Source of the DNA: Parcubacteria group bacterium
GTDB taxonomy: Bacteria; Patescibacteriota; Minisyncoccia; SW-4-49-11
NCBI GenBank assembly: GCA_943354045.1
Contig: CALRBF010000001.1
Coordinates: 136,026 to 200,025, forward strand
Length of the DNA stretch: 64,000 bases
Reading direction: 5' to 3'
The translations under genes and the position numbers were made by a program. Positions 13,193 to 46,972 of the stretch are shown piece by piece. Each line of letters starts with the position of its first letter. The stretch's first letter is position 1. Below the pieces are notes generated by a model. It saw only the letters and a list, made by a program, of their open reading frames with translations, had not been told where the DNA came from and searched no databases.

Positions 13193-14839
13193 CTATTGCG
13201 TAATACTTTGGAGCACTGTATTAGACAATCGTGTTGGCCAATAGGTTATACGTTTTATGCTGCCGTTTATTCGCTCCTGTCCACCAAAATCGTAATGTCC
13301 AACAGTTGCCATATTGACAGTTGGTAGTACTCCACTTGAATCTGTTTCTAATGCTACGCCCACTCTTTTTAGTGCAAAATCATTCGCCGCATAACCAAGT
13401 GCTACCTTGTTACCGCCGGGTGAACCAAAGATTGCTTGGACAGCGGATACCGAGACAACCGCCGTTTGTGCTGCGGCGTTTGAGAATTGAATCCGCTCTC
13501 CTGCGTCTGTGGATGCCCGAACGGTGATTGTTGCCCCGCCTCCAAGGACATTAGCTGTTTCTCCATAGAAAGTACCCCCCAACTGATTATACCAAGAGTT
13601 AAAATTAGTACCTGCTATTATTGTTGCACTATCTGCAAATCTTTGTACAGTAGCAGTCGTTGTAGGTATATAGGATGTAGCAAAAGCCCCTTGTTCTAAT
13701 TGAGCCCCCCATGCATAATAGCTATTCGTTGATGTAGAAGCTCCCCAAGTATCAAACCAAACTGACCCATTAGATTGTGTTAATACCGAATTCAAAGTAG
13801 CAGTTATGCTACAACGATACCAACCATTTCCTACATTTGTTATTGTTGCATTTGCAGCTGTTGCTGTCCCATTAACCGTAACTCCTCCAGATAATTGTCC
13901 CGTTGCAAGATTCAATAGCTGATTGGCTCCATTACCACCGGCAGCATCATCTATTCTTATTAATATTACAGATTGTGTATTAGCCTTCAGATAAACAGAA
14001 AACGTATAAGTCCCTATTGTAGATGTTGTAGCAGTTTTAGCCCAAACTTTAACATTACTAGTACTATTAGAACCAGTAACTATATCAGCATTTATACCTC
14101 CATCTGGAGAAGCAATTGTATTGGCTATTATAGCAACATTATTGAGGCTGGTACTAGCAGCTAAATCAGCTGATTGTAATAATAAATTTGTCCTCTGCTC
14201 CTCCACTAATAGCCCTAAACTCTCCCTGGTCACAGGATTATGATTAAACCTTGGTGCATTTACTGCTGCCGTCTTAATAAGTCCATCTGAGTCTACATAT
14301 GTTGCCGTAGGAGTAGTTTCTAAAACATTTCTTATAAAACTTATTGGATTAGTACCATTGACTGCATTGGTTAATTGTTTATCTCTTGCAAAGTTTAAAT
14401 CTAGGGTTGGTGCTACTGTTGTTCCTCCTGCTGCTGTTGCCAATATATTACTATTATCATATCCAGTACTTACTCCATTTACTGTCTTTGTCACTAAGTA
14501 TTGCCCTCTATCTGGTATGGGTATTCCTGCTATATAGTCACTTAATGCACTACTTAAATCTATTCCATTACTACATCCTGCTACTACACATAATCCTACT
14601 GTACTTCCTACTCCTACTCCTTGTAATGCTGGCGGATATACTCCCCTTTCTATAATATATTGTTGTATTGCCTTTGCTATTGCATTTTGATCTGATTTCC
14701 TCTTTGCTTCCCTTGCTGCTTCTATTTGTTTATTGGGGTTTATTGCAATTAATACTATTGCTGCTAATATACCTATTGCGGCAATCACCAATAATATCTC
14801 TAATAATGTAAATCCTTTCTTTTGTTTTCCTCCCCTCAT
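13193..14839 (-). CDS. Giant type IV pilin-like protein (prepilin N-terminus fused to large C-terminal domain), paralog 1
   Basis: Class III leader and N-terminal hydrophobic helix (MRGGKQKKG|FTLLEILLVIAAIGILAAIVLIAI). 548 aa. Shares conserved blocks with the 570-aa paralog at 18908..20620. Confidence 0.75.
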   Translation of the reverse strand: MRGGKQKKGFTLLEILLVIAAIGILAAIVLIAINPNKQIEAAREAKRKSDQNAIAKAIQQYIIERGVYPPALQGVGVGSTVGLCVVAGCSNGIDLSSALSDYIAGIPIPDRGQYLVTKTVNGVSTGYDNSNILATAAGGTTVAPTLDLNFARDKQLTNAVNGTNPISFIRNVLETTPTATYVDSDGLIKTAAVNAPRFNHNPVTRESLGLLVEEQRTNLLLQSADLAASTSLNNVAIIANTIASPDGGINADIVTGSNSTSNVKVWAKTATTSTIGTYTFSVYLKANTQSVILIRIDDAAGGNGANQLLNLATGQLSGGVTVNGTATAANATITNVGNGWYRCSITATLNSVLTQSNGSVWFDTWGASTSTNSYYAWGAQLEQGAFATSYIPTTTATVQRFADSATIIAGTNFNSWYNQLGGTFYGETANVLGGGATITVRASTDAGERIQFSNAAAQTAVVSVSAVQAIFGSPGGNKVALGYAANDFALKRVGVALETDSSGVLPTVNMATVGHYDFGGQERINGSIKRITYWPTRLSNTVLQSITQ

Positions 14840-18907: not shown

Positions 18908-20620
18908 TTATTTAGTGATATTAGTCAGAGTTGTATTGGATAATCGCGTCGGCCAGTAGGTTAATCGGGAGATTATACCATTAAGAGCATATGGTGGAGC
19001 TCCTCCAGTACCACTTCCAATATCTAATCTATCATGTGTAGCCATACCTGTGGCAGCTGTATTAGTTGTTATAGTTCCTATATTTCCATTAATACCTACA
19101 ATTAAATCTGAGCTATTAATTGCATATACAGATTTATATATGTTATTGCCTACTAAATAATTAAATGTCATCCCTGGAAATAATAATATTGGATTAGGAT
19201 TACGTGCAACACCCAAAAAAGATGTCGCATTTATAGCTCCTCTTAAAGCATAATTATTTTGATTTATAGCGGTATTATATACTTGGAATATATGTGGGGT
19301 ATTACTTGGAATTGCAGCAGTAGCAGTATAAATAGGAGAAAATTGACTAAACCAGGTTCCTGCTGCCTGATTATACCAACCTCCTCCTGAAGTTGTGGTA
19401 AAGTTTGTCCCCGTGATGCTCGCCACATCCGCGCTGCGGGTTACGGCGGCGGTGGTGGTAGGAATATATGAAGTTGGGAAAGCTCCTTGTTCTAGTTGAG
19501 CTCCCCAAATATAAACTTGAGAACCATTATAATTAGTACCATCATAATTACCTATACGAAATTGTGGTCTAAATGTAGTTTGTCCTGTAGGGATGGTATA
19601 AGTTGCAGAGACTCTATACCAATTATTACTATATGGTGTTATGGATGAAGCTGTAATATTAGTTCCTGTATTAATTGTACCTGATACTAAATTAATACTC
19701 ATAGAATAATTTAATCCCCAACCCTCTTGTACAATAGTGGCATTTTGCTGATTAATATATTTAACAAAAACTGAATATGTATATACTTGCCCTGTAGAAG
19801 CAGCTATCGTTTTTGCAACATTTGGATATAGCCCCGAAGCAGACATTAAAGTTCCTGTATTTGTACCATCCGGAGCTAAAGATTGGTTGGCAGTAGCAGA
19901 CATTGAGCCAGATTTTTCCCAATATACATTACTAATATCTGTACTATACAGCCATAAATTAGTTCTCTGCTCCTCAATCAATAGTCCTTGACTTGATTTT
20001 GTAATAGGATCATGAGTAAATCTTGGTGCATTTACTGTTGCGGTCTTAATAAGTCTATCTGAGTCTACATATGTTGCCGTAGGTGTACTTTCTACAATAT
20101 TACCTGGATTAGTTACTCTTGCAAAATTTATGGGATTAGTCCCATCAACTGCATTTACTAATTGTTTATCTCGGGCAAAGTTTAAATCTAATTTTGGAGC
20201 TGTAGTCCCAGCTGTTGCCCATATAGTACTACTATCATAGGCTGGTATAATCCCTGTCGCTGTTTTGGTTATAGTATATTGCCCCGTTTGAGGCAGAGGA
20301 ATAGCTGCTATATAAGGCGCTAAGTCAGTAGTCAAATCTATACCCCCTGTACAAGGGCTCGTCACACATAATCCTACCGTCCCTCCTGTTATCACAGATT
20401 GTAAGGCTGGTGGATATTTACCCCGATTATTGACTACATACTGTTCTATTGCCTTTGCAATAGCATCCATATCAGCTTTTCTTTTAACAGCTCTCCCGGC
20501 CTCTAATTGCTTATTAGGGTTAAGTACTACTAAACCTATTGCTGAAAATACACCAATAGCTGTGATTACTAATAATATTTCTATTAGGGTGAATCCTTTT
20601 TTCTTTTTATATATTATCAT
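18908..20620 (-). CDS. Giant type IV pilin-like protein, paralog 2
   Basis: Prepilin leader/helix MIIYKKKKG|FTLIEILLVITAIGVFSAIGLVVL. 570 aa. Conserved blocks shared with 13193..14839: LDLNFARDKQL.NAV.GTNPI.F, TPTATYVDSD.LIKTA.VNAPRF.H.P.T......GLL.EEQRTNL, IWGAQLEQGAF.TSYIPTTTA, R.TYWPTRLSNT.L. The blocks are separated by divergent segments. Confidence 0.75.
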   Translation of the reverse strand: MIIYKKKKGFTLIEILLVITAIGVFSAIGLVVLNPNKQLEAGRAVKRKADMDAIAKAIEQYVVNNRGKYPPALQSVITGGTVGLCVTSPCTGGIDLTTDLAPYIAAIPLPQTGQYTITKTATGIIPAYDSSTIWATAGTTAPKLDLNFARDKQLVNAVDGTNPINFARVTNPGNIVESTPTATYVDSDRLIKTATVNAPRFTHDPITKSSQGLLIEEQRTNLWLYSTDISNVYWEKSGSMSATANQSLAPDGTNTGTLMSASGLYPNVAKTIAASTGQVYTYSVFVKYINQQNATIVQEGWGLNYSMSINLVSGTINTGTNITASSITPYSNNWYRVSATYTIPTGQTTFRPQFRIGNYDGTNYNGSQVYIWGAQLEQGAFPTSYIPTTTAAVTRSADVASITGTNFTTTSGGGWYNQAAGTWFSQFSPIYTATAAIPSNTPHIFQVYNTAINQNNYALRGAINATSFLGVARNPNPILLFPGMTFNYLVGNNIYKSVYAINSSDLIVGINGNIGTITTNTAATGMATHDRLDIGSGTGGAPPYALNGIISRLTYWPTRLSNTTLTNITK

Positions 20621-33131: not shown

Positions 33132-34568
33132 ATGGTATTTAGCTCAATATTTTTTATCCTATTTTTCCTACCCGTTCTTATTATTGGATATTATCTTATC
33201 CATCCTAAATATCGTAATTTACTCCTTCTTATAGCAAGCTTATTATTTTATGTTGCAGGGGAAGCTAAATACAGTATAGTTTTATTAATTAGTATTTTTG
33301 CCAATTATATATTTGGTGCACTAATTGCACTATTTCAAAATAAAAATAATTCTCAAGGTGCAAAACTTATATTACTAGTATCCATAATCTTTAATATTGG
33401 TACATTAATTGTATTTAAATATGCCAATCTAATTGTAGATACTATTAATCCATTCTTACAATGGATTTTTTCTAATCAAATTAGTTTATCGCCTATTCAT
33501 CTACCTATTGGTATATCATTTTTCACTTTTCAAGCACTTTCATATGTAATTGATGTGTATAGGAGAGAAACTCGTTCTCAATTTAGTTTAATTAATTTTG
33601 CTATGTATATAGCATTATTTCCACAACTTATTGCTGGACCGATTGTAAGATATTTAGATATAGAAGATCAAATTCAAAACAGAAAACATTCCGTAAATCA
33701 TTTTACTGAAGGAATTACAATATTTATTATTGGACTTGCAAAAAAAGTATTAATTGCTAATAATGTTGCCCTTATTGCTGATCATATATTCTCATTACCC
33801 AGTCAAGAAATTGGATTTTCCTATGCTTGGATTGGAATCATAGCGTATAGTCTTCAAATATATTTTGATTTTTCTGGGTATTCTGATATGGCTGTGGGGC
33901 TTGGTAAAATGTTTGGATTTGATTTTGTTAAAAATTTCAATTATCCTTATATTTCTCAGTCCATACAAGATTTTTGGCGAAGATGGCATATTTCATTATC
34001 TACTTGGTTTCGAGATTATTTATATATTCCTTTGGGGGGTAATAGAAAAGGAGAAAAAAGAACATATATTAATTTGATTATTGTATTTGGTTTATGTGGA
34101 TTATGGCATGGAGCTAGTTGGGTGTTTTTATTATGGGGATTATGGCATGGAGCCTTTTTAATTATTGAAAGACTTCCCTATACAAAAAACCTAATTAACA
34201 AGTCACCTTTACTCATCAAATACCTTTATACTTTTTTAGTAGTAACTATTGGTTGGGTGTTTTTTAGAGCCGAGAATGTAACATTCGCAATACAATATTT
34301 AGAATCAATGTTTGGATTAAATGGGAATGCCTCACTCTCGACTTTACCAATAAATATTTATAATAATAAAACAATAGTATTTCTTATATTAGGAATTGCT
34401 GGAAGTATTCCGTTACTTCCCTATATTAAATCGAGAATATCCTCTATAAAATTATTAAAGAATATTCAATATCCTCTTTATTACACTTATACCATTATAA
34501 TATTATGTTTTTCTATATTAGCATTATCAAATAATGCATATAATCCATTCATATATTTTAGATTTTAA
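33132..34568 (+). CDS. MBOAT family membrane O-acyltransferase (DltB/AlgI/PatA-like)
   Basis: Polytopic, with the conserved-His region WHISLSTWFRDYLYIPLGGNR characteristic of MBOAT enzymes. Confidence 0.8.
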   Translation: MVFSSIFFILFFLPVLIIGYYLIHPKYRNLLLLIASLLFYVAGEAKYSIVLLISIFANYIFGALIALFQNKNNSQGAKLILLVSIIFNIGTLIVFKYANLIVDTINPFLQWIFSNQISLSPIHLPIGISFFTFQALSYVIDVYRRETRSQFSLINFAMYIALFPQLIAGPIVRYLDIEDQIQNRKHSVNHFTEGITIFIIGLAKKVLIANNVALIADHIFSLPSQEIGFSYAWIGIIAYSLQIYFDFSGYSDMAVGLGKMFGFDFVKNFNYPYISQSIQDFWRRWHISLSTWFRDYLYIPLGGNRKGEKRTYINLIIVFGLCGLWHGASWVFLLWGLWHGAFLIIERLPYTKNLINKSPLLIKYLYTFLVVTIGWVFFRAENVTFAIQYLESMFGLNGNASLSTLPINIYNNKTIVFLILGIAGSIPLLPYIKSRISSIKLLKNIQYPLYYTYTIIILCFSILALSNNAYNPFIYFRF

Positions 34569-34569
34569 T

Positions 34570-35691
34570 ATGAAAATATCTTTTAATTATATATATATTA
34601 CAAACATTATATTCATAGGAGTTTTTTTTCTCATTATTATAACTCCACTTATTTTAACTCTACTCAATCCTAATTCATCAACAAATATTGAAAATAAGAC
34701 ATTAGCTCAAAAACCTCCAGTTCAACTTATTCGAGAAGGTAAATTTGGTGAATATGTTAAAAATGGTGCTAAATATTTTGAAGATTCATATCAACTTAAA
34801 AGTAATCTCATAAATATTAACTCACTGATTGACTATTATGGTTTTAATATATCTCCTAAAGACTCCGTAACACTAGGAAAGGATCAATGGTTGTTTTATA
34901 CCGCTGAAGATGGAGTTAATATTCAAGATTATTATGGAAAAAAACTATTCCAAGAAAAAGATTTAGAAAATATATCAAAAGAAATAACTAATATAAAAAC
35001 AAAATTAGATAAAAGAAATATTCAGTTTATTATTATGATGACCCCTAATAAACATACTATTTATGAGGAATATTTACCTTCTCGTATTCGTAATCAAAAA
35101 GGAAGTCTTACTAGAGCCGATCAATATACTCCTATATTATCATCCCTCAATGTAAATTATATTGATCTTAGGAAAACACTATTAGATCAAAAATCTCAAT
35201 ACGCTTATCCATTATATTATTCCCTTGATAGCCATTGGAATGATAGGGCTGGACTCATTGCATATAATAAACTCCTTACAAAAATCAATCCACGTCCTTC
35301 AACAAAAATACCTGATATTACTATAGGTACTAAAAATCGCACTGGAGATTTAGGTAATATTATTGGACTTAGCCACAGACTCAAAGACACTTCTATTTCA
35401 GCAAATATACCTTCTCCCCCACTATACTCAACCAATATTACTAACACAAAAGAGATTAATCAAATTATCACTAAAAATCCCAATGGAGACCCAAGAAAAA
35501 TACTTATGTTTAAAGATTCATTTTCCGGAGCTTTATTACCATTTATGTCCTCCCAATTCTCAGAAGTACTTTATGATGCTAATCCTAAAGTAGATTTTAA
35601 CCTTATAGATGAATATAAACCCGATATTGTCATATTACAATTTGTAGAGAGATATTCTAATATTTTATTACAGAATGGAAATAAGTTTTAA
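34570..35691 (+). CDS. AlgX/AlgJ/PatB-like extracytoplasmic O-acetyltransferase partner (N-terminal anchor, SGNH-like fold)
   Basis: N-terminal TM anchor and a DSHW motif (SLDSHWNDRAGL), as in AlgJ/AlgX/PatB. It is immediately downstream of the MBOAT gene, and the start was placed at the internal ATG adjacent to the MBOAT stop. Confidence 0.5.
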   Translation: MKISFNYIYITNIIFIGVFFLIIITPLILTLLNPNSSTNIENKTLAQKPPVQLIREGKFGEYVKNGAKYFEDSYQLKSNLININSLIDYYGFNISPKDSVTLGKDQWLFYTAEDGVNIQDYYGKKLFQEKDLENISKEITNIKTKLDKRNIQFIIMMTPNKHTIYEEYLPSRIRNQKGSLTRADQYTPILSSLNVNYIDLRKTLLDQKSQYAYPLYYSLDSHWNDRAGLIAYNKLLTKINPRPSTKIPDITIGTKNRTGDLGNIIGLSHRLKDTSISANIPSPPLYSTNITNTKEINQIITKNPNGDPRKILMFKDSFSGALLPFMSSQFSEVLYDANPKVDFNLIDEYKPDIVILQFVERYSNILLQNGNKF

Positions 35692-38816: not shown

Positions 38817-38890
38817 GGATGTGTAGCTCAGCTGGTTAGAGCAGTCGTCTTATAAGCGACAGGTCGGTGGTTCAAGTCCACCCATATCCA
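38817..38890 (+). tRNA. tRNA-Ile with genomically encoded anticodon UAU (reads AUA)
   Basis: GGATGTG-TA-GCTC-AGCTGGTTA-GAGC-A-GTCGT-CTTATAA-GCGAC-AGGTC-GGTGG-TTCAAGT-CCACC-CATATCC-A. The D arm and T arm are near-identical to bacterial tRNA-Ile (AGCTGGTTAGAGC; AGGTCGGTGGTTCAAGTCCAC). The anticodon loop is CTTATAA. Confidence 0.75.
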
Positions 38891-38909
38891 CATCAATAGA
38901 TAACCCATT

Positions 38910-39254: not shown

Positions 39255-40199
39255 TTACCTCTTTGTCGTTTGTTGAGTTACAATTTCATAGGCCATAATA
39301 GCGGTGGCGGTGGCTACATTCAGAGATTGAATCTTACCATACATTGGGATATATCCGAGCATATCACAACTAGAGGCAATACTTGGTCTGAGTCCCTTAC
39401 CTTCGCTTCCCATTACGAGTACAGTTGGTAAGTCATTGAAGTCATATTGATAAAATGGTGGAGTTTCTGGGTTACAATCACTACCCAATATCCAAAAGCC
39501 TAATTGCTTCAAGGTATTAAGTGCGGTATTCATATTGCCTACTTGTACCAGAGGCACATATTTGTCTGCCCCAGAGGCAACTTTTGACCCTATAGGGGAT
39601 ATAATCCCCCCTCTATGCTTAGGTAGTAATACGCCAAGAGCTCCCATAGTCTCAGCCACGCGGATAATTGCTCCAATATTATGTTGATCGGTAATTTCAT
39701 CCAGAGCAATAACTAAACCTTTAGAAGTATCCCCTACTTTCTCTTTGATACTAGCAGCCCATTCTTCTAAACTGAGTAAAGGCTCAGCTGTTACCACGGC
39801 AATAATACCTTGATGAATATAATCCCCTTCTTCAGCAATTTCTTTCTCTAATAATCCGGTTATTTTTTGAATAGGAACATATTGAATGAGGGCAAGAGAC
39901 TCTTTAGCAAGTTCCAAAATTTGCTCCAAACGCTTATCTCGAACCTGATTCTCTCGAGTAATATAAATTTTCTGAACTCGCTTAGGATCTTGTTTTAATA
40001 TCTCCAGCACGGAATTCTTTCCATATACATATTGACTCCCATCTTTATCTTTTAGCTTACCCTTAGGAGCTTTACTCAATTGATTGGCGGGATTACGACG
40101 ATGTTTGGTAGTAGGCAAAGCAGACTTTGGGACATCTTCACGCTTTTCGCGCTTATTACGGCGAATAGCTTTTGACTTCTTTTTGGTAGGATATGGCAT
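39255..40199 (-). CDS. rlmB: SpoU/TrmH-family 23S rRNA 2'-O-methyltransferase (RlmB-like) with Lys/Arg-rich N-terminal extension
   Basis: A C-terminal SPOUT methylase core (GNVGAIIR-like HNIGAIIRVAETMG; LVMGSEGKGL). About 60 aa of basic low-complexity N-terminus. Confidence 0.7.
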   Translation of the reverse strand: MPYPTKKKSKAIRRNKREKREDVPKSALPTTKHRRNPANQLSKAPKGKLKDKDGSQYVYGKNSVLEILKQDPKRVQKIYITRENQVRDKRLEQILELAKESLALIQYVPIQKITGLLEKEIAEEGDYIHQGIIAVVTAEPLLSLEEWAASIKEKVGDTSKGLVIALDEITDQHNIGAIIRVAETMGALGVLLPKHRGGIISPIGSKVASGADKYVPLVQVGNMNTALNTLKQLGFWILGSDCNPETPPFYQYDFNDLPTVLVMGSEGKGLRPSIASSCDMLGYIPMYGKIQSLNVATATAIMAYEIVTQQTTKR

Positions 40200-40261
40200 A
40201 AATAAAATATAAATAATTAAGGCTATACTAGCATAAAATATAGGTATTGTATAGGTGTTGA

Positions 40262-40545
40262 GAGTATCTTAGTCGCTTGTATTTTGTCCTCCTTAGGAGG
40301 AGCTTTAAGTCCCTCCCATACTTTAGTTTGCGAGTGGCCGGAGGTGGATAATTCGTAAACTATGTTATAAAATAGAAATGAGATTTGATCGCTATCCACC
40401 CCCGTCTTGTAGACTTCCCCCTCCCTGCCTACCGAAGGCAGGCGAAGGGAGGACAAGAGTAAAGATTTTTTTGTTACGACAACACAGGCGACTGAAAGGT
40501 CGCCCCTACGAAGTAAAAGTAGGTTTTATGTAGTAGGGAATAAAT
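40262..40545. repeat. GC-rich hairpin-dense repeat element, copy A (candidate structured ncRNA / MITE-like)
   Basis: About 50% GC against a roughly 33% background. It shares an exact 19-mer CTTTAAGTCCCTCCCATAC and a ~30-nt block CACAGGCGACTGAAAGGTCGCCCCTACG with 44950..45245, where the second block is inverted. It also has multiple GGAGG/CCTCC stems, for example CCTCC-tta-GGAGG and CCCTCCCTGCC-taccgaa-GGCAGGcgaaGGGAGG. Confidence 0.5.
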
Positions 40546-42318
40546 CTAGGTATATATAACTCTAGGATTATACTGTTCCAAACCATTTTCTTTGTCTAAG
40601 ACAGTAGCAATTTCTTCACTCAATTCTCTTAATCGTGCCTGTTTAGTATCAAAATCATCGGGTTTTTGATATTGCTCTATATATTCTTTTAATTTATTAA
40701 TTGCTTTAATAATAGAATCCTTATCTGTAAGTTCTGTTTGCTCTAGTTTACCTCTTATATATTCACTTTGACTATATCTTTTATTTAATTCAACTACTCT
40801 AGATGTGTTAATAGAAAATTTAGAATTTATTGTATGATATTGACTAATATATTGGTCTCGCTCAGTAATCCTTAATTTTATATTTTCTAAAATTGGGCTT
40901 AATCTAGATATAGCATCTTGATCTCTAGAGGGATTCCATCTTGATTTAGATTTATTCTGTTCTAGATAATCCTCTATTTCTCTCAGTTCCCCTACTTTCA
41001 TTTTTTTGCTTTCTGGTATTCTAAAATTACGAAGTGCTCTAATATTACTTATAGCTGATCCTAATCTATCTAATTCAGTATTTAGAGATGTACTACTATC
41101 TTCAACTTTATTTGATAATTCCTCTAAGGTTTTTTGATAATCTTCTTGTAATTCAAAACCTTTACCTGTTAATCTAACTTCACAAGTGACTTTTTCTAAT
41201 TCTTCTGATAATAAATTTAGATTTATATTATCAGAAGACCTATCTCTTTCTAAATGAGAAGCTTCTTGATATGATGGATCTCCTTTAATACCCCCTACTT
41301 CTTGTTCTAAAGTATTTTTACTATCTCTAAGTAAATTTAATTCCCTCTCTTTAGCGCCCCTAGCAAAATATTGAATAGATTGTTCAGTAGATTCTGAGCC
41401 GTTATACACCTTTGAATCTACTTTTAGCTTTTTAATTTGCTCCATTCCATCAACATACCCGTATAATTCAAAAATTTCTTCCAAATCTCTATCTGATATA
41501 TAGAATTCTGTTTCACCCCTTACTTCTCGTGTGACCTTAGTTTCAGATAATCTTTTTTCTAATTCTCCTTTAGCTCGCTCTAATAAAATAGGTTTATCAT
41601 TCTCTTCTGCTCCAGTTTCTGCATAACTTGCCTGAGATTCTGTTAATTGCGTATTCAATTCTTCTAGCCTAGTTTGTATAGCTGTCTGTACTTGATTTTC
41701 AGTTTCTTGATCAAAAGTTTGTAAATTTTGTGCTACCTGTAATAAGGAATCTTCATTAGCCTTAATTGCTGCACCAAATTGTGGTTTACTTCGTGCTTTC
41801 TCAGTAAATTCTTCGATTGACTCTGTACTTTTAGGATTAGTTGCTTTTAACTTATTATAAGCTTCCTTAATCATCTGTAAAAGTTGTAGTTGTATTCCTG
41901 ACAATTTTGTTTTTGTATTTTCCAAACTAATTCTAGACTCTTGTCTAGATTGTAAAATTTCATTTTGTATTGCGTCAAACGCTTCTCCCTGCCTACTTTC
42001 TAATTGCTGAATTTGAGATTTAATGTCCTGTATTTCTAAGCCTTGTTCTGATAATCCATCTTCATTTACTTCAAATGATGGTTTTGATTCTTTTATTCCT
42101 TGATCGACTAATTCATCCAAATCAAAATTTAAGGAATCTGGATCAAGTTCTGGCTCTCCCTCAATAGCAGGAGACTCTTTATCTTCTATAGTTTCTAGAC
42201 CTGCTTGTAATTTAGCTAATTCTTCAGGGGATAATTCTGTAGATGCAGCATTACCAGAAGAACCTGCACCACCCTCTTGTTCTGGAGCATATACTATTGA
42301 ATTCTCAAATAATCTCAT
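40546..42318 (-). CDS. Large acidic coiled-coil protein (hypothetical), encoded directly downstream of ftsA
   Basis: 590 aa, E/Q/L-rich with heptad character throughout. No TM segment, no tubulin (GGGTGSG) motif and no P-loop. It lies 9 bp downstream of ftsA on the same strand. Confidence 0.55.
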   Translation of the reverse strand: MRLFENSIVYAPEQEGGAGSSGNAASTELSPEELAKLQAGLETIEDKESPAIEGEPELDPDSLNFDLDELVDQGIKESKPSFEVNEDGLSEQGLEIQDIKSQIQQLESRQGEAFDAIQNEILQSRQESRISLENTKTKLSGIQLQLLQMIKEAYNKLKATNPKSTESIEEFTEKARSKPQFGAAIKANEDSLLQVAQNLQTFDQETENQVQTAIQTRLEELNTQLTESQASYAETGAEENDKPILLERAKGELEKRLSETKVTREVRGETEFYISDRDLEEIFELYGYVDGMEQIKKLKVDSKVYNGSESTEQSIQYFARGAKERELNLLRDSKNTLEQEVGGIKGDPSYQEASHLERDRSSDNINLNLLSEELEKVTCEVRLTGKGFELQEDYQKTLEELSNKVEDSSTSLNTELDRLGSAISNIRALRNFRIPESKKMKVGELREIEDYLEQNKSKSRWNPSRDQDAISRLSPILENIKLRITERDQYISQYHTINSKFSINTSRVVELNKRYSQSEYIRGKLEQTELTDKDSIIKAINKLKEYIEQYQKPDDFDTKQARLRELSEEIATVLDKENGLEQYNPRVIYT

Positions 42319-42327
42319 ATATATTTT

Positions 42328-43590
42328 TTAATCTGGTAAAAAGGTCTTAATAAGTTTGTTGAGTGGACCCCATAATTTGAATGGGGTTTTCTTGGCTGAG
42401 CGACCTCCATCATAATCGAATCCCCCATCTTCTTCGGTATTACCAAATCCTTCTAAAATAAGTCCTACCAAATTAGCATATATAGCATTATCCACATCAG
42501 CAATACTTCCTTCTACTCCTTGAGGAATTCCAATTTTTACCGGAAGTTTTAATTCTTGTTTAGCCAAATCAGCTATAGAATTGAGATTTGCTCCCCCTCC
42601 TACTAGTACTGCTCCTGCTGGTAATAGTCCTTCTCTTTCTATTTCTTGTAATTCTTTTATAATAAGACCAAAAATTTCCTTTAATCGAGCTTCTATAATG
42701 CTCGCTATATAAGATATAGGAAATACCCCCACTTCCTCTGAATTCATTTTTGCTAAATCAATTTTGAGTTTGGAGTCTGCCCCGAGACCATCCTCAAGTG
42801 CTGAGCCATATTTCAACTTTACCTTTTCTGCAACTTCAATAGAAGTTCTAAGCCCAATAGCAATATCATTCGTAATATGTGCAGCTCCAATCGGGATAAT
42901 CGCAACATGAATAAGCCGCCCCTCTTCATATACCGCAAGAGAAGTTGTCCCAGCTCCCAAATCAATCACAGCAACTCCCAAATCTTTTTGTTTTTTGGTA
43001 AGTACTGCTTGAGCTGAGGCGAGTATACCAACTTCCTGATGTTCTATCCCGAGACCCAAAGTTTGTATACATTTTTCTAAATTCCTAATAGGAGATGCAT
43101 TCCCTTCCAGAATTAAAGCCTCTAATTCTAGACGAATTCCATTCATTCCAACAGGATTTTTTATCCCTGACTCTTCATCAAGAATATAGGTTTTGGGAAT
43201 AATAGTAATAATTTCTTTATTTTGACTACTTGGACCTGGATTAGCATTAGATAATACTCTTGCAATATCCTCCTCGGTAACCTCCCCATCAGCACGAGAA
43301 ACCGCCACTTTACCCGATGTCTCAAAACTTTTGATATGAGAACCATTCAATGATATAATCACCTGTTTTATATCCTCTTCTATCATTTTAGAAGCTGAAT
43401 CAAGAGCCAAATGAATACTACGAGTAGCATCTTGTATATCTACCACCACTCCTCGCCTCAAACCCTCACTAGGAGCCACGCCTAAAGCAATAATAGAAGG
43501 GTCTTTATCTTCTCTGAGACGCCTTCCTACCGCTATCTTTGTAAGTGATGTTCCTACGTCTAATCCAACTATTATTTCATTTTTGGACAT
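42328..43590 (-). CDS. ftsA: Cell division protein FtsA
   Basis: IVGLDVGTSLTKIAVG N-terminus, IPKTYILDEESGIKNPVGMNGIRLE (compare E. coli IPQEYAIDYQEGIKNPVGLSGVRM), IDLGAGTTSLAVY, GGGANLNSIADLA, and a C-terminal amphipathic helix KLWGPLNKLIKTFL. Confidence 0.85.
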   Translation of the reverse strand: MSKNEIIVGLDVGTSLTKIAVGRRLREDKDPSIIALGVAPSEGLRRGVVVDIQDATRSIHLALDSASKMIEEDIKQVIISLNGSHIKSFETSGKVAVSRADGEVTEEDIARVLSNANPGPSSQNKEIITIIPKTYILDEESGIKNPVGMNGIRLELEALILEGNASPIRNLEKCIQTLGLGIEHQEVGILASAQAVLTKKQKDLGVAVIDLGAGTTSLAVYEEGRLIHVAIIPIGAAHITNDIAIGLRTSIEVAEKVKLKYGSALEDGLGADSKLKIDLAKMNSEEVGVFPISYIASIIEARLKEIFGLIIKELQEIEREGLLPAGAVLVGGGANLNSIADLAKQELKLPVKIGIPQGVEGSIADVDNAIYANLVGLILEGFGNTEEDGGFDYDGGRSAKKTPFKLWGPLNKLIKTFLPD

Positions 43591-43636: not shown

Positions 43637-44095
43637 TTAGGAAAAGGAATAGTGTTTTTTTACTATCGCCAATAATTCCTGCTCCACTTGACTCATTTTC
43701 TGATATTCATCATCCATTTGATGATCATATCCTATAAGATGACATAATCCATGTATACAAAGTACCGCAATTTCATACTCTATACTATGCCCTAAATCTT
43801 GAGCTTGTATCAAAGCCTTATTATAACATATCATAATTTCCCCCAAAATCTGCTCCGGCAAACTCTGAATACTCGCCTCATCCCATAGCGGGAATGACAA
43901 CACATCCGTCACCTTATCCTGAGACCTATATTGAGCATTGAGATGCCGAATTGTCTCCTCTGACACAATAGCAATACTGACCGTAGTCTCCCTGAGATTA
44001 CGGTCAATATAATTGCTAAAACTATCAATACATAAAGCTATAAGATTATTATAGTCTGGAATATTGGGAACTTGTGTTTCAAATTCCAATATCAT
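43637..44095 (-). CDS. ybeY: Endoribonuclease YbeY (rRNA maturation factor)
   Basis: H..H.....H zinc motif HGLCHLIGYDH, 152 aa. Confidence 0.85.
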   Translation of the reverse strand: MILEFETQVPNIPDYNNLIALCIDSFSNYIDRNLRETTVSIAIVSEETIRHLNAQYRSQDKVTDVLSFPLWDEASIQSLPEQILGEIMICYNKALIQAQDLGHSIEYEIAVLCIHGLCHLIGYDHQMDDEYQKMSQVEQELLAIVKKHYSFS

Positions 44096-44098
44096 ATA

Positions 44099-44539
44099 TT
44101 ATCCTAATTTAGCCTGAACTAACGTTTTAATCTGATTACCATCAGCCTTACCTTGTGCTTTGGTAACCACTGATTTCATCACAGAACCAAAATTGGCAGC
44201 ACCCCCCAATTCAGCAATACTCGCATCTACCAATTGAGCTAATTCTTCATCTGAAAGCTTTGCTGGCAAATAAGATTGAATAATATCAAGTTCAGCCTGC
44301 TCTGAATCAACCAAATCTTCTCTTCCCGCATCGCGATAAGCTTGAATAGAATCTTTACGTTGTTTTTCGAGACGAGCTAATACCTTCATCACATCAATAT
44401 CCTCCAAAGGCGCTCCTTTATCAATTTCAGCATTTTTAAATTCTGAACTAAAAGTTCTAAGCACAGTCTTTTTGAGATCATTATGATCTTTCATAGCCTG
44501 TATCATATCTTTTTTAATTTGTAGCGCAATTTCAGACAT
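44099..44539 (-). CDS. GatB/YqeY domain protein
   Basis: About 146 aa, all-helical. It matches the YqeY family usually found between rpsU and ybeY/phoH in Firmicutes-like operons. Confidence 0.75.
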   Translation of the reverse strand: MSEIALQIKKDMIQAMKDHNDLKKTVLRTFSSEFKNAEIDKGAPLEDIDVMKVLARLEKQRKDSIQAYRDAGREDLVDSEQAELDIIQSYLPAKLSDEELAQLVDASIAELGGAANFGSVMKSVVTKAQGKADGNQIKTLVQAKLG

Positions 44540-44550
44540 AGTGAAAGGTA

Positions 44551-44820
44551 TTATTTGATACTTGCTTTAATTTTCAACTTATACTTATTAGGAAGTCTTT
44601 CTGTTGAACTAACTTTTCCCATTTTAACTAATTTATCTTTTTCAGTTAAAAATTGAACTTTTTTAATAGCAGCTTGTCTTTGCTTGGTCTTTGACTTATT
44701 TTTAGTCAAAAATCGTGAGGCTCGGGCTTCAGACAATACTTCGCTTTTCTGAATACGTCGAGTGAAGCGTCGAATCATAGATTCTACACTTTCTCTTTCT
44801 CTCTTTCTTACTTCTACCAT
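44551..44820 (-). CDS. rpsU: 30S ribosomal protein S21
   Basis: MVEVRKRERESVESMIRRFTRRIQKSEVLSEARASRFLTKNKSKTKQRQ matches S21. I chose the start at the internal ATG, preceded by AAGGAGG at -9. The track ORF starts 10 codons earlier. Confidence 0.8.
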   Translation of the reverse strand: MVEVRKRERESVESMIRRFTRRIQKSEVLSEARASRFLTKNKSKTKQRQAAIKKVQFLTEKDKLVKMGKVSSTERLPNKYKLKIKASIK

Positions 44821-44949
44821 ATAATATAACCTCCTTTCATGATTTTTCATTCGCTAAAAATAAGTCCTTAGCAAGACTTTGTTACAATTCTATCACAAAA
44901 TCAAAAGATTAGCAATAGTATGTATAAGATGAGGAAATCAATAGATAAA

Positions 44950-45245
44950 TTATGCTTTCGTAGCGGAGGCTTTAAGTCCCTCCCATACATTGTTTGGGAG
45001 GGGGTTTATCCCTCCACTATTGTTCTTATGTAGGGGAGACCTATCAGTCGCCTGTGATATATTTGAGCTTGAGCTTTTATCTCCCTCCAAAGGGAGGACA
45101 GAAATACAAGTTGCAGAATACTTCCACCCCACCATCTAAAAGACGGTACCCCTCAATTTATCTCCCGTAGGGAGAGAGGGGTAATTTAGAGTAACTAGAA
45201 AGAAGCCACCTGTTAGGGTGACTTAAGAGGTTTTTCCATCAAGTA
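44950..45245. repeat. GC-rich hairpin-dense repeat element, copy B (rearranged relative to copy A)
   Basis: Contains the same 19-mer CTTTAAGTCCCTCCCATAC (44970..44988) and the inverted copy of the GGCGAC-hairpin block (45025..45056). Serial CCCTCC/GGGAGG hairpins: GGGAGGGggtttatCCCTCC, TCCCTCCaaaGGGAGGA, TACCCCTC..TCTCCCgtaGGGAGA..GAGGGGTA. It lies immediately upstream of rpsU. Confidence 0.5.
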
Positions 45246-45569
45246 CTAAATGGGTCTTTGGGATTGTGGATTTAATATGTCTGACACTAGATTCCATAGC
45301 GAATCTGTTAGCTCAATGGTATGAATTGTATTATCAAATCTATATTGTCCTAAATCCTCCTCATGTTTAATGTTGAACCCAAACTCAATTTTTGTTCTTA
45401 ATATTTCAATATCTGTACTATGGTCTGCGGTGAGAAAATCTATTAAGCCTTCCCTAAATCCTACTATAGTTTTTATTTGGGATAGAATACTATCATAACA
45501 TCTAATCCAGTTCTTTCCCGATAATTGCCTTGCTTGTCCTGTCGTGTTTGACATTGGCTTATAAACCAC
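45246..45569 (-). CDS. Hypothetical 107-aa protein (orphan)
   Basis: An ORF only. No recognisable motifs. It sits between repeat copy B and the HisRS-like gene. Confidence 0.3.
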   Translation of the reverse strand: MVYKPMSNTTGQARQLSGKNWIRCYDSILSQIKTIVGFREGLIDFLTADHSTDIEILRTKIEFGFNIKHEEDLGQYRFDNTIHTIELTDSLWNLVSDILNPQSQRPI

Positions 45570-45691
45570 TTAATGTGGTGTGATAGTGCAATTTATATAT
45601 ACCATAAAAATGACATTTTGTCTATCTTAGATAGGAAATTGGAGTATAGTTTATAATTAATTATTATTTGTCTTTGTATTGATTTACCAAT

Positions 45692-46972
45692 TTATTCTTT
45701 TCCTAATTTATGAGAAATTATTGATAATAATTTGTCGATAGGTATTATTTCTTGATTCTCACTTTCTTTATCTCTGAGTATTACTGTTCCATCTACTGCT
45801 TCTTTGCGTCCTACTATGAGGGTGATTTCTGCATCTGATTTTTTTGCTTTTAATAATTGTTGTTTGAGACTTTTGATTCCAAAGCTTTCTTTTACTCCAA
45901 GTCCATGTTTTTGAATAAGGGATAAAATTTTTAAAGCACTTTTTTGTCCTTCAGGTCCAATAGAGGCTACAAAGATATCTGGCTTTTTTTTCTCAATCAC
46001 AGCATCTGTTTGTATTTGCTTTACAATATGTACCAGGGCATCTACATAAATCTCCACCCCCACTGCTCCTGTTTTTTTATCTCCTCCCAAGAGAGTGAAT
46101 AATTCATTGTGACGCCCTCCCCGCACTAATACAATATCTGGATTGTCCTGACTTCTAATTTCAAAATACACTCCTTCATTGAATCCAATTGAACCCGAAA
46201 GTTGAGAGTCTAATTCATAGGGAATATCTAATGTCTCTAAAAATTCTAACACTGCTTTAAAGTATTGTGTTTCTGTAGTACTGAGATAATCTACAATTTG
46301 TGGTAATCGCAAATTAATATCCATATCTTCTAAAGATAATTCATTATATAATCGTATTGGATTATATTGTAATGCCTTCACTAATTCTGCAAAACGAGGT
46401 TGTGATTTTGATACTAATTCCTCATAATATTTTCGTCGTGATTCTTGGCTCCCAAGTTCATTGATGGTAACTATTAAATTAGGTATAGATAATTCTTCAA
46501 GCATTCGATAAGTGGTGAGAATTAATTCGGAGTCCCTTACAGGCATATCATCCCCAATACATTCGGCCTTGAATACATGAAATTGCTGTGGTTCTGTTCC
46601 TATATTATCATCTTCATCTACTAATGATATTCCATAATCAAATAATTTTAATGGTTCCTCTTTATAATCAAGATTATGCTCAATAACTGATTTGAATATG
46701 CTAATAGGTCCTGGAACACTCATTACAATGGCATCTTTGCTATTACTCTTTAGAGTTAGGAGAGATTTTTTATCATTAAGATTGAGCTCAGAAATAATTT
46801 CCGGAGTAAATAAAGAAAGTTTTTGACTAAAAGCAAACACATTATGCTGATAGCCTGTACTTTGTAAAGTTAATCGTATATCTGCAACAATATGTTCCCA
46901 GATGGCAGCTGTTTCGCTTGTAATTTTATTTGCTGACAGTGAGGGAAATGGATGTAATATATTCTTACTCAT
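45692..46972 (-). CDS. Histidyl-tRNA synthetase-like protein lacking canonical catalytic motifs (HisZ-like / pseudo-synthetase)
   Basis: HisRS fold blocks are recognisable (ETAAIWEHI..., QQFHVFKAECIG vs RQFHQLGCEVFG; VRGGRHNEL vs GGRYDGL; C-terminal anticodon-binding-like domain IFVASIGPEG). But LRPEGT is replaced by MSVPGP, and the motif 2 FRHERPQKGR is replaced by SLVDEDDNIGTE. Confidence 0.55.
   Translation of the reverse strand: MSKNILHPFPSLSANKITSETAAIWEHIVADIRLTLQSTGYQHNVFAFSQKLSLFTPEIISELNLNDKKSLLTLKSNSKDAIVMSVPGPISIFKSVIEHNLDYKEEPLKLFDYGISLVDEDDNIGTEPQQFHVFKAECIGDDMPVRDSELILTTYRMLEELSIPNLIVTINELGSQESRRKYYEELVSKSQPRFAELVKALQYNPIRLYNELSLEDMDINLRLPQIVDYLSTTETQYFKAVLEFLETLDIPYELDSQLSGSIGFNEGVYFEIRSQDNPDIVLVRGGRHNELFTLLGGDKKTGAVGVEIYVDALVHIVKQIQTDAVIEKKKPDIFVASIGPEGQKSALKILSLIQKHGLGVKESFGIKSLKQQLLKAKKSDAEITLIVGRKEAVDGTVILRDKESENQEIIPIDKLLSIISHKLGKE

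What the first reader, a model, noticed from the sequence alone, without database searches (positions are those of the whole stretch)
40546..43590. ftsA is followed by a 590-aa acidic coiled-coil protein instead of ftsZ
ftsA is almost universally the gene immediately upstream of ftsZ. Here a bona fide FtsA, with conserved actin-fold motifs and a C-terminal membrane-targeting helix, sits in an rpsU-yqeY-ybeY operon context. Nine bp downstream it is followed by a long E/Q-rich coiled-coil protein with no tubulin signature, no TM segment and no P-loop. This could be an uncharacterised FtsA-associated cytoskeletal or division scaffold, perhaps analogous to EzrA- or ZapA/SepF-type factors but much larger. 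No ftsZ is in the window.
Basis: partly seen in the sequence, partly recalled or inferred. Interest (0 to 1): 0.65.

Follow-up and report, generated by a model that had tools for sequence, protein, structure and literature searches.

The report
Hypervariable orphan helical protein after ftsA
In one clade of tiny freshwater bacteria (Paceibacteria), the cell-division gene ftsA is always followed by a 590-780-aa acidic helical protein with no known relatives instead of ftsZ, and this protein differs so much between near-identical strains that it is probably under diversifying selection, though a role in division is unproven.

Summary
A genuine FtsA (42328-43590, minus strand) lies in an rpsU-yqeY-ybeY operon. 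Nine nt downstream starts a 590-aa acidic, mostly helical ORF, here called X (40546-42318). The window has no ftsZ. X is not an artefact: the identical gene recurs in at least five independent assemblies. An X homolog follows ftsA in 21 of 21 surveyed loci with FtsA >=70% identical. X did not displace ftsZ. Sister lineages (FtsA 65-67%) already have ftsA after ybeY but lack X, and a distant X homolog is not beside ftsA. X matches no Pfam, NCBIfam, PHROG, PADLOC or PDB entry and no solved or viral fold. Only 24 relatives exist among 1.84 billion representative proteins. The new finding is extreme variability. Strains with 99-100% identical FtsA and about 95% identical flanking DNA carry X alleles 12-27% identical, mosaic in structure. 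Two ancient C-terminal classes are shared across species. X has dN/dS 0.34-0.90, against 0.01-0.23 for neighbouring genes. A crude FtsA-X co-fold showed no interface. Best reading: a clade-specific, fast-diversifying cytoplasmic scaffold co-transcribed with ftsA. The division role is inferred only from gene position.

The parts
44551..44850 (-). S21-like ribosomal protein gene (rpsU), first gene of the conserved block rpsU-yqeY-ybeY-ftsA-X
   Evidence: Pfam Ribosomal_S21 at 21.9 bits, below the cutoff. The position is conserved in all related loci.
44099..44539 (-). yqeY (GatB/YqeY-domain protein)
   Evidence: Pfam YqeY, E=7.8e-43.
43637..44095 (-). ybeY endoribonuclease
   Evidence: Pfam YbeY, E=1.8e-35.
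42328..43590 (-). ftsA: actin-like division protein with SHS2 (1C) insert and C-terminal amphipathic helix
   Evidence: TIGR01174 at 332.9 bits against a cutoff of 175.85, plus PF14450 and PF02491. Amphipathic tail with muH 0.61. dN/dS 0.01. It is the only FtsA in the window.
42319..42327 (-). 9-nt ftsA-X spacer with no room for a terminator. It is also the upstream edge of the replaceable X cassette.
   Evidence: Sequence read. DNA identity with L006 stops exactly at the ftsA stop codon.
42268..42318 (-). X residues 1-17: semi-conserved N-terminal peptide (M..F...I...PE.EGG)
   Evidence: Nearly invariant columns F4, I8, P12, E13, E15, G16, G17 in alignment A1. Disordered in the model.
42085..42267 (-). 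X residues 18-78: acidic disordered linker, variable in length and sequence
   Evidence: Net charge about -20 over residues 1-100. pLDDT 26-54. Many indels in the alignment. Local dN/dS above 1. An assembly gap falls here in L138.
41419..42084 (-). X residues 79-300: the conserved core. It holds the motifs KPxFxV..(D)GLSxQG (79-93), F..ET (202-206), Y..[TS][GE]AE..DK..LLE (232-247) and IF..YG...G (282-291). The recombination junction with L002 lies at about residue 242 (window about 41593).
   Evidence: Conservation over 40 distinct alleles and invariant columns. The breakpoint comes from blastn.
40546..41418 (-). X residues 301-590 plus the stop codon: hypervariable helical C-half, class A allele
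   Evidence: 12-13% identical to conspecific class B alleles but 64% identical to L013, whose FtsA is only 70% identical. Helices and a beta-hairpin at 381-390, pLDDT about 90. Heptad signal at 380-504.
40200..40545 (-). Structured GC-rich spacer after X. It probably contains the operon's terminator hairpins. The downstream edge of the variable cassette lies at about 40292-40425.
   Evidence: RNA fold of -97 kcal/mol, z=-3.8. Shares repeated motifs with the spacer upstream of rpsU. DNA identity with L006 and L002 resumes at 40292 and 40425. No Rfam hit.
39255..40199 (-). SpoU/TrmH-type RNA methyltransferase, the conserved downstream flank
   Evidence: Pfam SpoU_methylase and SpoU_sub_bind. dN/dS 0.008. 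Follows X in all related loci.

Best explanation
X is a real, clade-restricted gene for a soluble cytoplasmic protein. The protein has a short semi-conserved N-terminal peptide, an acidic disordered linker of about 60 aa, and a helical body of about 500 aa built from helical hairpins.

Shown:
- X is transcriptionally welded to ftsA, with a gap of 9-20 nt, in every genome of one freshwater Paceibacteria clade.
- X is kept intact everywhere at 590-782 aa.
- Only a few short motifs in residues 79-300 are conserved.
- The rest evolves nearly neutrally or under positive selection.
- The gene is swapped between strains and species as mosaic cassettes, by recombination anchored in ftsA upstream and in the spacer/SpoU region downstream.

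Inferred:
- X acts as a scaffold or hub made together with FtsA.
- Its conserved motifs dock onto invariant partner(s), with FtsA or the divisome as the first candidate.
- Its variable helical surface is under diversifying or frequency-dependent selection, most plausibly because it is contacted by antagonists such as phage proteins.

X did not replace ftsZ. The ftsA/ftsZ split happened earlier, and ftsZ is presumably elsewhere in the genome.
For: - Real gene: identical in at least five independent assemblies. Intact in all 21 surveyed loci and in more than 35 loci overall.
- Clade-restricted orphan: 22 hits in the word-indexed search and 24 in the exhaustive search of 1.84e9 representatives. 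No family, solved structure or fold match.
- Operon linkage: 9-20 nt gaps. X follows ftsA in 21 of 21 loci with FtsA >=70% identical.
- Architecture: AF2 mean pLDDT 80, with a disordered acidic N-terminus. No TM segment or P-loop.
- Variability: flanks 94-98% identical while X has no DNA match. Identity matrices are incongruent with FtsA, and L006 is a segment mosaic. dN/dS is 0.90 against 0.01-0.23 for 17 neighbours, and 0.34-0.88 against 0.02-0.10 in seven further pairs.
- Conserved motif islands are confined to residues 79-300.
Against: - There is no direct evidence that X touches FtsA or the divisome. The single-chain co-fold left X's N-terminal motifs at pLDDT 23-50, no better than X alone.
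- FtsA is 99-100% identical across strains with radically different X alleles, so there is no co-variation.
- The full-length homolog P0029 is not next to ftsA.
- The whole region is collinear in the clade, so adjacency may be historical.
- Sister lineages manage without X.
- dN/dS near 1 is also what relaxed constraint would give.
- No antagonist has been identified, and X matches no known defence protein.
- No expression data exist.
Confidence: 0.35

Rival explanations
1. X is a conflict-interface protein unrelated to division. It would be a cytoplasmic target, decoy or sensor in an arms race with phages, or with the host of this probably epibiotic bacterium. It merely occupies a recombination-friendly slot between two highly conserved genes, ftsA and spoU.
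For: - Cassette-like allele replacement, trans-species allele classes and mosaicism.
- dN/dS up to 0.9, with local windows above 1.
- P0029 sits away from ftsA, near RM and AAA_21 genes and Wzy_C genes.
- The C-module is reused as a fusion in another protein, P0033.
- The neighbourhood is flexible: MmeI RM insertions and an MBOAT/AlgX island.
Against: - No match to any PADLOC defence model.
- No enzymatic or effector domain, and no partner gene that varies with it.
- The tight 9-20 nt coupling to ftsA is invariant across 21 of 21 loci.
- No phage homologs.
Confidence: 0.3
2. X is a weakly constrained structural spacer. Only its length, helicity, charge and a few motifs matter, so its sequence drifts quickly. 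Ordinary homologous recombination between co-occurring lineages shuffles the drifted alleles without any diversifying selection.
For: - dN/dS is at or below 1 overall (0.34-0.90).
- Helical and coiled-coil proteins tolerate substitutions (general knowledge).
- ORF length and helical architecture are preserved.
- Related lineages co-occur in the same lake sample, 3300035666.
Against: - Two C-half classes only 12-17% identical are each retained within two lineages whose FtsA differs by 30%. That is hard to obtain by drift alone.
- Flanks are 94-98% identical while X has no detectable DNA similarity.
- Several 60-codon windows have dN/dS of 2.4-4.6, though the counts are small.
Confidence: 0.2
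3. X is an exported or surface fibrillar protein, analogous to streptococcal M protein or pneumococcal PspA, whose antigen-like variability reflects exposure to phages or hosts.
For: Acidic, helical, mosaic and hypervariable, like M protein and PspA (the comparison rests on general knowledge). Type IV pilin-like genes are common nearby.
Against: No signal peptide, TM segment or wall anchor in any allele; maximum 19-residue hydropathy is 0.2-1.2. The gene starts 9 nt after a cytoplasmic protein's gene. No secretion-system gene is linked.
Confidence: 0.07
4. X functionally replaces FtsZ in a clade that has lost ftsZ.
For: No ftsZ within 10 kb of ftsA in any locus of the clade. I could not find the clade's ftsZ.
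Against: - X has no GTPase or tubulin features.
- The sister lineages L015 and L017 also lack adjacent ftsZ and have no X.
- Failing to find ftsZ here reflects the limits of the tools, not evidence of absence.
- Paceibacteria in general express ftsZ (PMC9938205).
- A hypervariable protein is an unlikely core constriction motor.
Confidence: 0.03
5. X is an annotation or assembly artefact: a frameshifted fusion, chimeric contig or non-coding ORF.
For: X is in the same frame as ftsA in this window. No database family supports it.
Against: Zero nucleotide differences in L134, L135, L137, L139 and L140, which come from different samples. Intact homologs exist in more than 35 loci with varying, non-multiple-of-3 gaps. 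A confident AF2 model. Conserved motifs.
Confidence: 0.01

Closest known systems
Accessory helical or coiled-coil division proteins encoded with or acting on FtsA/FtsZ (EzrA, ZapA/ZapB, SepF, DivIVA/GpsB, ZipA)
   Same: A lineage-restricted, largely helical, non-enzymatic protein encoded beside a core division gene. A scaffold-like architecture with a disordered linker.
   Different: No sequence or fold similarity to any of them. No N-terminal TM anchor, unlike EzrA and ZipA. Those proteins are conserved within species, whereas X is hypervariable. No evidence that X binds FtsA or FtsZ.
Mosaic, hypervariable alpha-helical proteins under diversifying selection (streptococcal M protein, pneumococcal PspA)
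   Same: An acidic helical protein with allele classes, segmental mosaicism by recombination, and conserved anchoring parts next to hypervariable parts.
   Different: Those proteins are exported and wall- or choline-anchored surface antigens. X has no signal peptide or anchor and is predicted to be cytoplasmic. No homology.
Hub/scaffold proteins with an N-terminal client-binding peptide, an acidic disordered linker and a helical oligomerisation body (for example PopZ of Alphaproteobacteria)
   Same: The same order of parts: a short conserved N-terminal peptide, an acidic disordered region, then helices. This is a resemblance from general knowledge and was not tested.
   Different: X is about three times larger, shows no homology and is hypervariable. 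Its localisation and clients are unknown.
FtsZ C-terminal linker plus C-terminal peptide (the FtsA-binding module of FtsZ)
   Same: An acidic disordered linker followed by a conserved proline-x-phenylalanine peptide. In X this is K-P-x-F-x-V with P80 invariant. The Patescibacteria FtsZ consensus is E-I-P-A-F-I-R-R.
   Different: In X the peptide is internal, not C-terminal, lacks the basic residues and is followed by GLSxQG. The co-fold gave no docking signal. This is a lead only.

Membership tests
FtsA (TIGR01174; Pfam PF14450 + PF02491), for the upstream gene | Score above the curated equivalog cutoff | tested here: met
   332.9 bits against a cutoff of 175.85. PF14450 at 122 bits.
FtsA (TIGR01174; Pfam PF14450 + PF02491), for the upstream gene | SHS2 (1C) subdomain inserted in the actin fold | tested here: met
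   PF02491, E=5e-23, residues 83-160. The beta-rich insert is modelled at pLDDT of about 90.
FtsA (TIGR01174; Pfam PF14450 + PF02491), for the upstream gene | C-terminal amphipathic membrane-targeting helix after a flexible tail | tested here: met
   KLWGPLNKLIKTFL has muH 0.61. AF2 did not model it as a helix (pLDDT 22-31), so support comes from sequence only.
FtsA (TIGR01174; Pfam PF14450 + PF02491), for the upstream gene | Typical (not defining) genomic context: ftsZ immediately downstream | tested here: not met
   No FtsZ in the window or in 21 related loci. FtsZ does follow ftsA in 71 of 89 informative loci with FtsA below 70% identity.
FtsZ/tubulin (PF00091), for X | Tubulin signature GGGTG[ST]G and a GTPase domain | tested here: not met
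   No signature. No Pfam hit even at E<=10. The FtsZ HMM finds nothing.
EzrA (PF06160), for X | N-terminal transmembrane anchor | tested here: not met
   Maximum 19-residue hydropathy is 0.21. The N-terminus is acidic and disordered.
EzrA (PF06160), for X | EzrA sequence profile or spectrin-like repeat fold | tested here: not met
DivIVA/GpsB, ZapA, SepF, for X | Match to the family profile | tested here: not met
   No hits at E<=10 for the window allele or E<=1 for six other alleles. No PDB sequence hit.
SMC/Rad50-type coiled-coil ATPases, for X | Walker A/B ATPase head flanking the coiled coil | tested here: not met
   No P-loop in any allele. No SMC_N hit. JGI's label 'chromosome segregation ATPase' for P0010 is therefore unsupported.
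Canonical long coiled coil / intermediate-filament-like rod (crescentin, FilP), for X | Continuous heptad periodicity over the rod | tested here: inconclusive
   The 3.5-residue periodicity is significant only in residues about 380-504 (z 2.9-4.9). Elsewhere z is below 2.3. AF2 folds the chain into helical hairpins. A monomer model cannot exclude intermolecular coiled coils.
Surface fibrillar antigens (M protein/PspA type), for X | Signal peptide and cell-wall or choline anchor | tested here: not met
   No hydrophobic segment in any allele.
Surface fibrillar antigens (M protein/PspA type), for X | Mosaic hypervariable helical region with allele classes | tested here: met
Known anti-phage defence systems (PADLOC-DB), for X | Match to any defence protein model | tested here: not met
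   Seven X-family proteins scanned. Only two sub-threshold noise hits, at 13.9 and 15.2 bits.
Phage-derived protein (PHROGs, BFVD, phage genomes), for X | Sequence or fold match to a viral protein | tested here: not met
   PHROG E>=0.006. tblastn found no match. Best BFVD hit E=0.011 with TM<=0.13.
FtsA-binding partner (functional class), for X | Physical interface with FtsA | tested here: inconclusive
   The single-chain AF2 co-fold gave no confidence gain for X motifs. The alignment was unpaired and no PAE was available. Multimer prediction and experiments could not be done here.

The most novel reading that the evidence does not exclude
X is a previously unknown FtsA-tethered hub of the Paceibacteria divisome. 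It would dock on FtsA through its conserved 'KPxF...GLSxQG' peptide, which follows an acidic linker in the way the FtsZ C-terminal peptide follows its linker. Its helical surface would be locked in an arms race with phage- or host-encoded division inhibitors. That would make it the first case of a core-divisome-associated protein maintained as ancient, recombining allele classes across species.
Probability: 0.1. Interest if true: 0.8.

Novelty: new variant of a known kind. Interest (0 to 1): 0.5.

Why it matters
Patescibacteria (CPR) make up a large share of bacterial diversity, have minimal genomes and are mostly uncultured. How they divide, and how they cope with phages and hosts, is largely unknown.

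Here a 2-kb gene is kept intact in every member of a clade with tiny genomes and is fused transcriptionally to ftsA. Yet it varies as much between strains as surface antigens do. If it is divisome-associated, it would show that even the cytoplasmic division machinery can carry a fast-evolving, population-polymorphic component. It would also give a handle on phage-divisome conflict in CPR bacteria. If it is not, it is still a clean natural example of a balanced, mosaic polymorphism in an orphan gene, and a useful strain marker for freshwater Paceibacteria time series such as Lake Mendota.

The analysis also shows that ftsA-ftsZ adjacency, though the norm, has been lost several times within Patescibacteria.

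Tried and rejected
1. Locating ftsZ.
- A motif scan flagged one ORF in L012. It is a glycine-rich type IV pilin (KGFTLLEILLVIAAIG), not FtsZ.
- A profile of nine Patescibacteria FtsZs, searched against 5.8e9 proteins, returned 8000 hits.
- The 10 kb beyond the window's right end has no ftsZ.
- ftsZ's location in this clade, and strictly even its presence, remains unresolved.

2. An exact-DNA scan of metagenome contigs with a conserved 35-nt pattern from the 3' end of ftsA found nothing. It was replaced by a protein-based scan.

3. The afdb50 fold library was not available.

The chain was then supplied as letters. The co-fold was uninformative or negative.

5. The look-up of P0283 turned out to be the window's own FtsA and added nothing.

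6. Readthrough or fusion of ftsA and X was rejected. They are in frame here, but relatives have gaps of 11, 13 and 20 nt.

7. Phage origin was rejected.

8. Membership of a known defence system was rejected.

9. Literature searches found no description of this protein or gene pair.

10. No Rfam family matches the structured spacer.
Full report
OBSERVATION. On the minus strand the window encodes an S21-like protein (44551-44850), YqeY (44099-44539), YbeY (43637-44095), a 420-aa FtsA (42328-43590) and, nine nucleotides later, a 590-aa ORF that I call X (40546-42318). FtsA is genuine. It scores 332.9 bits on the TIGR01174 equivalog model (cutoff 175.85) and carries the Pfam FtsA and SHS2_FTSA domains. 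It ends in an amphipathic segment, KLWGPLNKLIKTFL, with muH 0.61. X has pI 4.69, with 14% Glu and 7% Gln. It has no hydrophobic segment (maximum 19-residue hydropathy 0.21) and no P-loop. The window has no ftsZ. The tubulin signature is absent from all six frames, and an FtsZ HMM finds nothing at E<=1. The one correction concerns 'coiled-coil'. The AF2 model (mean pLDDT 80) shows a disordered acidic N-terminus (residues 1-59) and a helical body of helical hairpins with two small beta-hairpins. Heptad periodicity is significant only around residues 380-504.

NOT AN ARTEFACT. The window's exact FtsA protein is found on 16 contigs from European lake metagenomes. In five of them (L134, L135, L137, L139, L140), from different samples, the full X gene has zero nucleotide differences from the window. 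ftsA and X share a reading frame here, but relatives have gaps of 11, 13, 18 and 20 nt, so readthrough is not a conserved feature.

ORGANISM AND GENE ORDER. A GenBank MAG from Lake Mendota labelled Candidatus Paceibacteria (Patescibacteria/CPR) has a 100% identical FtsA (L006). I surveyed 124 loci encoding FtsA relatives, from GTDB genomes and JGI metagenomes, and classified the gene after ftsA with HMMs. With FtsA >=70% identical, X follows ftsA in 21 of 21 loci, and no FtsZ lies within the flanks. With FtsA 55-69% identical, two loci have another gene next and one has FtsZ. With FtsA 40-54% identical, FtsZ is next in 40 loci, another gene in 13, and FtsZ lies nearby but not adjacent in one. 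Below 40%, FtsZ is next in 30 loci, lies in the flank but not adjacent in one, and another gene is next in one. So ftsA-ftsZ adjacency is the rule in Patescibacteria but has been lost several times. In this clade the whole block rpsU-yqeY-ybeY-ftsA-X-spoU is collinear. Two sister loci (L015 and L017, FtsA 65-67%) already have ybeY-ftsA but no X; convergent genes follow instead. X therefore did not displace ftsZ. It arrived after the split.

WHERE IS ftsZ? I could not find it. A tubulin-signature ORF in L012 proved to be a type IV pilin. A profile search with nine Patescibacteria FtsZs was saturated by Moranbacteria sequences. The 10 kb beyond the window's right end holds redox, RuvA, transketolase and ABC transporter genes. 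This failure reflects the limits of the tools. Paceibacteria in general express ftsZ and ftsA (PMC9938205).

THE NEW FINDING: HYPERVARIABILITY.
- DNA level. The window and L006 are 94-98% identical on both sides, and ftsA is 97.8% identical. Across X, blastn finds no match at all. Identity stops at the ftsA stop codon and resumes at window 40292. L002 stays 96% identical through ftsA and the first 725 nt of X, up to the invariant GAEENDK motif at residue 242. It then loses all similarity until about 40425.
- Protein level. FtsA is 99-100% identical among the window, L002 and L006. The N-part of X is 81% (window-L002) and 27% (window-L006) identical. The C-part is 12% and 13% identical.
- Cross-species pattern. 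The window's C-part is 64% identical to that of L013, whose FtsA is only 70% identical. L013 and L004 (FtsA 98%) have C-parts only 17% identical. So two ancient C-half classes, A and B, coexist in at least two species-level lineages.
- Mosaicism. L006's X is a patchwork. Residues 1-300 resemble L009 (80-92%), residues 331-390 resemble L002/P0013/P0014 (97-98%), and residues 450-630 resemble P0018 (88-100%).
- Substitution rates. Between the window and a strain with the same allele class (L145), X has dN/dS 0.90. Its 17 neighbours range from 0.00 to 0.23, and FtsA is 0.01, at similar dS. In seven more strain pairs X gives 0.34-0.88 against 0.02-0.10 for FtsA. Local 60-codon windows exceed 1 at residues 31-90, 331-420 and 481-540.
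- Constraint. The ORF is nevertheless intact at 590-782 aa in every locus. Across 40 distinct alleles, a set of short motifs in residues 79-300 is conserved: KPxFxV...GLSxQG, F..ET, Y..[TS][GE]AE..DK..LLE and IF..YG...G. Weaker C-terminal motifs are LP..I...L and Y.TP.E.

DOES X BIND FtsA? The only support is the invariant, tight operon linkage. Several results argue against it or are neutral. FtsA does not co-vary with X alleles. P0029 is unlinked from ftsA. I also ran a single-chain AF2 co-fold of FtsA + KIY + X with an unpaired alignment of 34 FtsA and 20 X homologs. FtsA folded well (pLDDT about 90), but the FtsA tail and X residues 1-100 stayed at pLDDT 22-50, no better than X alone, and X's first helices lost confidence. 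This test is weak, since there was no pairing and no PAE output, so I count it as inconclusive and leaning negative. One untested lead remains. X's invariant P80-x-F82 peptide follows an acidic disordered linker, which loosely recalls the FtsZ C-terminal peptide that binds FtsA.

INTERPRETATION. Shown: X is a real, clade-specific, cytoplasmic, largely helical orphan protein. It is co-transcribed with ftsA as far as gene spacing can show, is maintained by selection for an intact long ORF with a few motifs, and diversifies by rapid substitution and cassette-like recombination anchored in ftsA and in the spacer/spoU region. Inferred: X is a scaffold or hub whose conserved motifs dock to invariant partners, FtsA being the first candidate. 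Its variable surface would be under diversifying or frequency-dependent selection, perhaps from phage proteins. I give this 0.35. The main rivals are a conflict-interface protein unrelated to division (0.30) and a weakly constrained spacer shuffled by ordinary recombination (0.20). Less likely are a surface antigen-like protein (0.07, with no export signals) and a functional FtsZ replacement (0.03). An artefact is excluded.

COMPARISON AND NOVELTY. X works like neither EzrA, DivIVA, SMC, ZapA nor SepF by any test available, and it is not a member of those families. Its population genetics resemble M protein or PspA-type mosaic helical antigens, but it lacks their export and anchoring signals. 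Its order of parts (N-terminal peptide, acidic disordered region, helices) recalls hub proteins such as PopZ; that resemblance was not tested. I found no description of this protein or gene pair in the literature held here. I rate it a new variant of a known kind, namely a lineage-specific helical accessory protein with antigen-like polymorphism. Interest is 0.5. The pattern is clean and unusual for a gene welded to ftsA, but the function is unknown and the organisms are uncultured.

Noticed in passing
window 40200-40545 and 44851-45245: The spacer after X folds very stably as RNA (-97 kcal/mol, z=-3.8) and is GC-rich in a 33% GC genome. It shares two motifs with the spacer upstream of rpsU: GCTTTAAGTCCCTCCCATAC at 40302 and 44969, and the hairpin GGCGACTGAAAGGTCGCC at 40487(+) and 45035(-). 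The motifs therefore bracket the rpsU..X operon. A further copy lies elsewhere in L006 (20295-20439). No Rfam family matches. It could be a terminator or insulator, a small mobile repeat, or an unknown RNA.
   Followed up: partly
window 33132-35691: A strain-specific island encoding MBOAT and AlgX-like proteins (polysaccharide O-acetylation type) is present in the window and in L143/L144. It is replaced by about 380 nt in L006 and is absent from L002.
   Followed up: partly
L001 3264-5984; L002 13375-16080; L004 13570-16287: An MmeI-type restriction-modification gene is inserted right after the SpoU gene in several relatives but not in the window, which has a MazG-like gene there. The region downstream of X is therefore a flexible spot.
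   Followed up: no
window 38817-38891: A tRNA-Ile with anticodon TAT (UAU). This is an uncommon way for bacteria to read AUA; the usual route is a lysidine-modified CAU anticodon.
   Followed up: no
window 13193-14839 and 18908-20620; L012 15602-16876; L032 15003-16181: Large type IV pilin-like proteins (392-570 aa) with the KGFTLLE prepilin N-terminus. The glycine-rich one in L012 matches the tubulin signature pattern by chance and could be mistaken for FtsZ in motif scans.
   Followed up: partly
window 44851-45691; L002 5102-7313; L136 1514-2585: The stretch between the hisS-like gene and rpsU varies between strains. The window has a 107-aa ORF with no family match, while relatives have one or two RDD-domain genes and other small ORFs.
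   Followed up: no
L138 about 5340-5440 (= L147): One scaffold has a run of Ns exactly in the acidic disordered N-terminal region of X. This suggests assembly trouble from within-population variation there.
   Followed up: partly
window 45692-46972: The 426-aa 'histidyl-tRNA synthetase' matches tRNA-synt_His and the anticodon-binding domain only weakly (E about 1e-7). It may be a divergent HisRS or a HisZ-like paralog.
   Followed up: no
L062 8001-11090 (P0033): A 1029-aa protein from another lineage carries the class B C-terminal module of X at its N-terminus. This is followed by tandem repeats of about 40 aa and a large C-terminal domain with no family match, next to V-type ATPase genes.
   Followed up: partly
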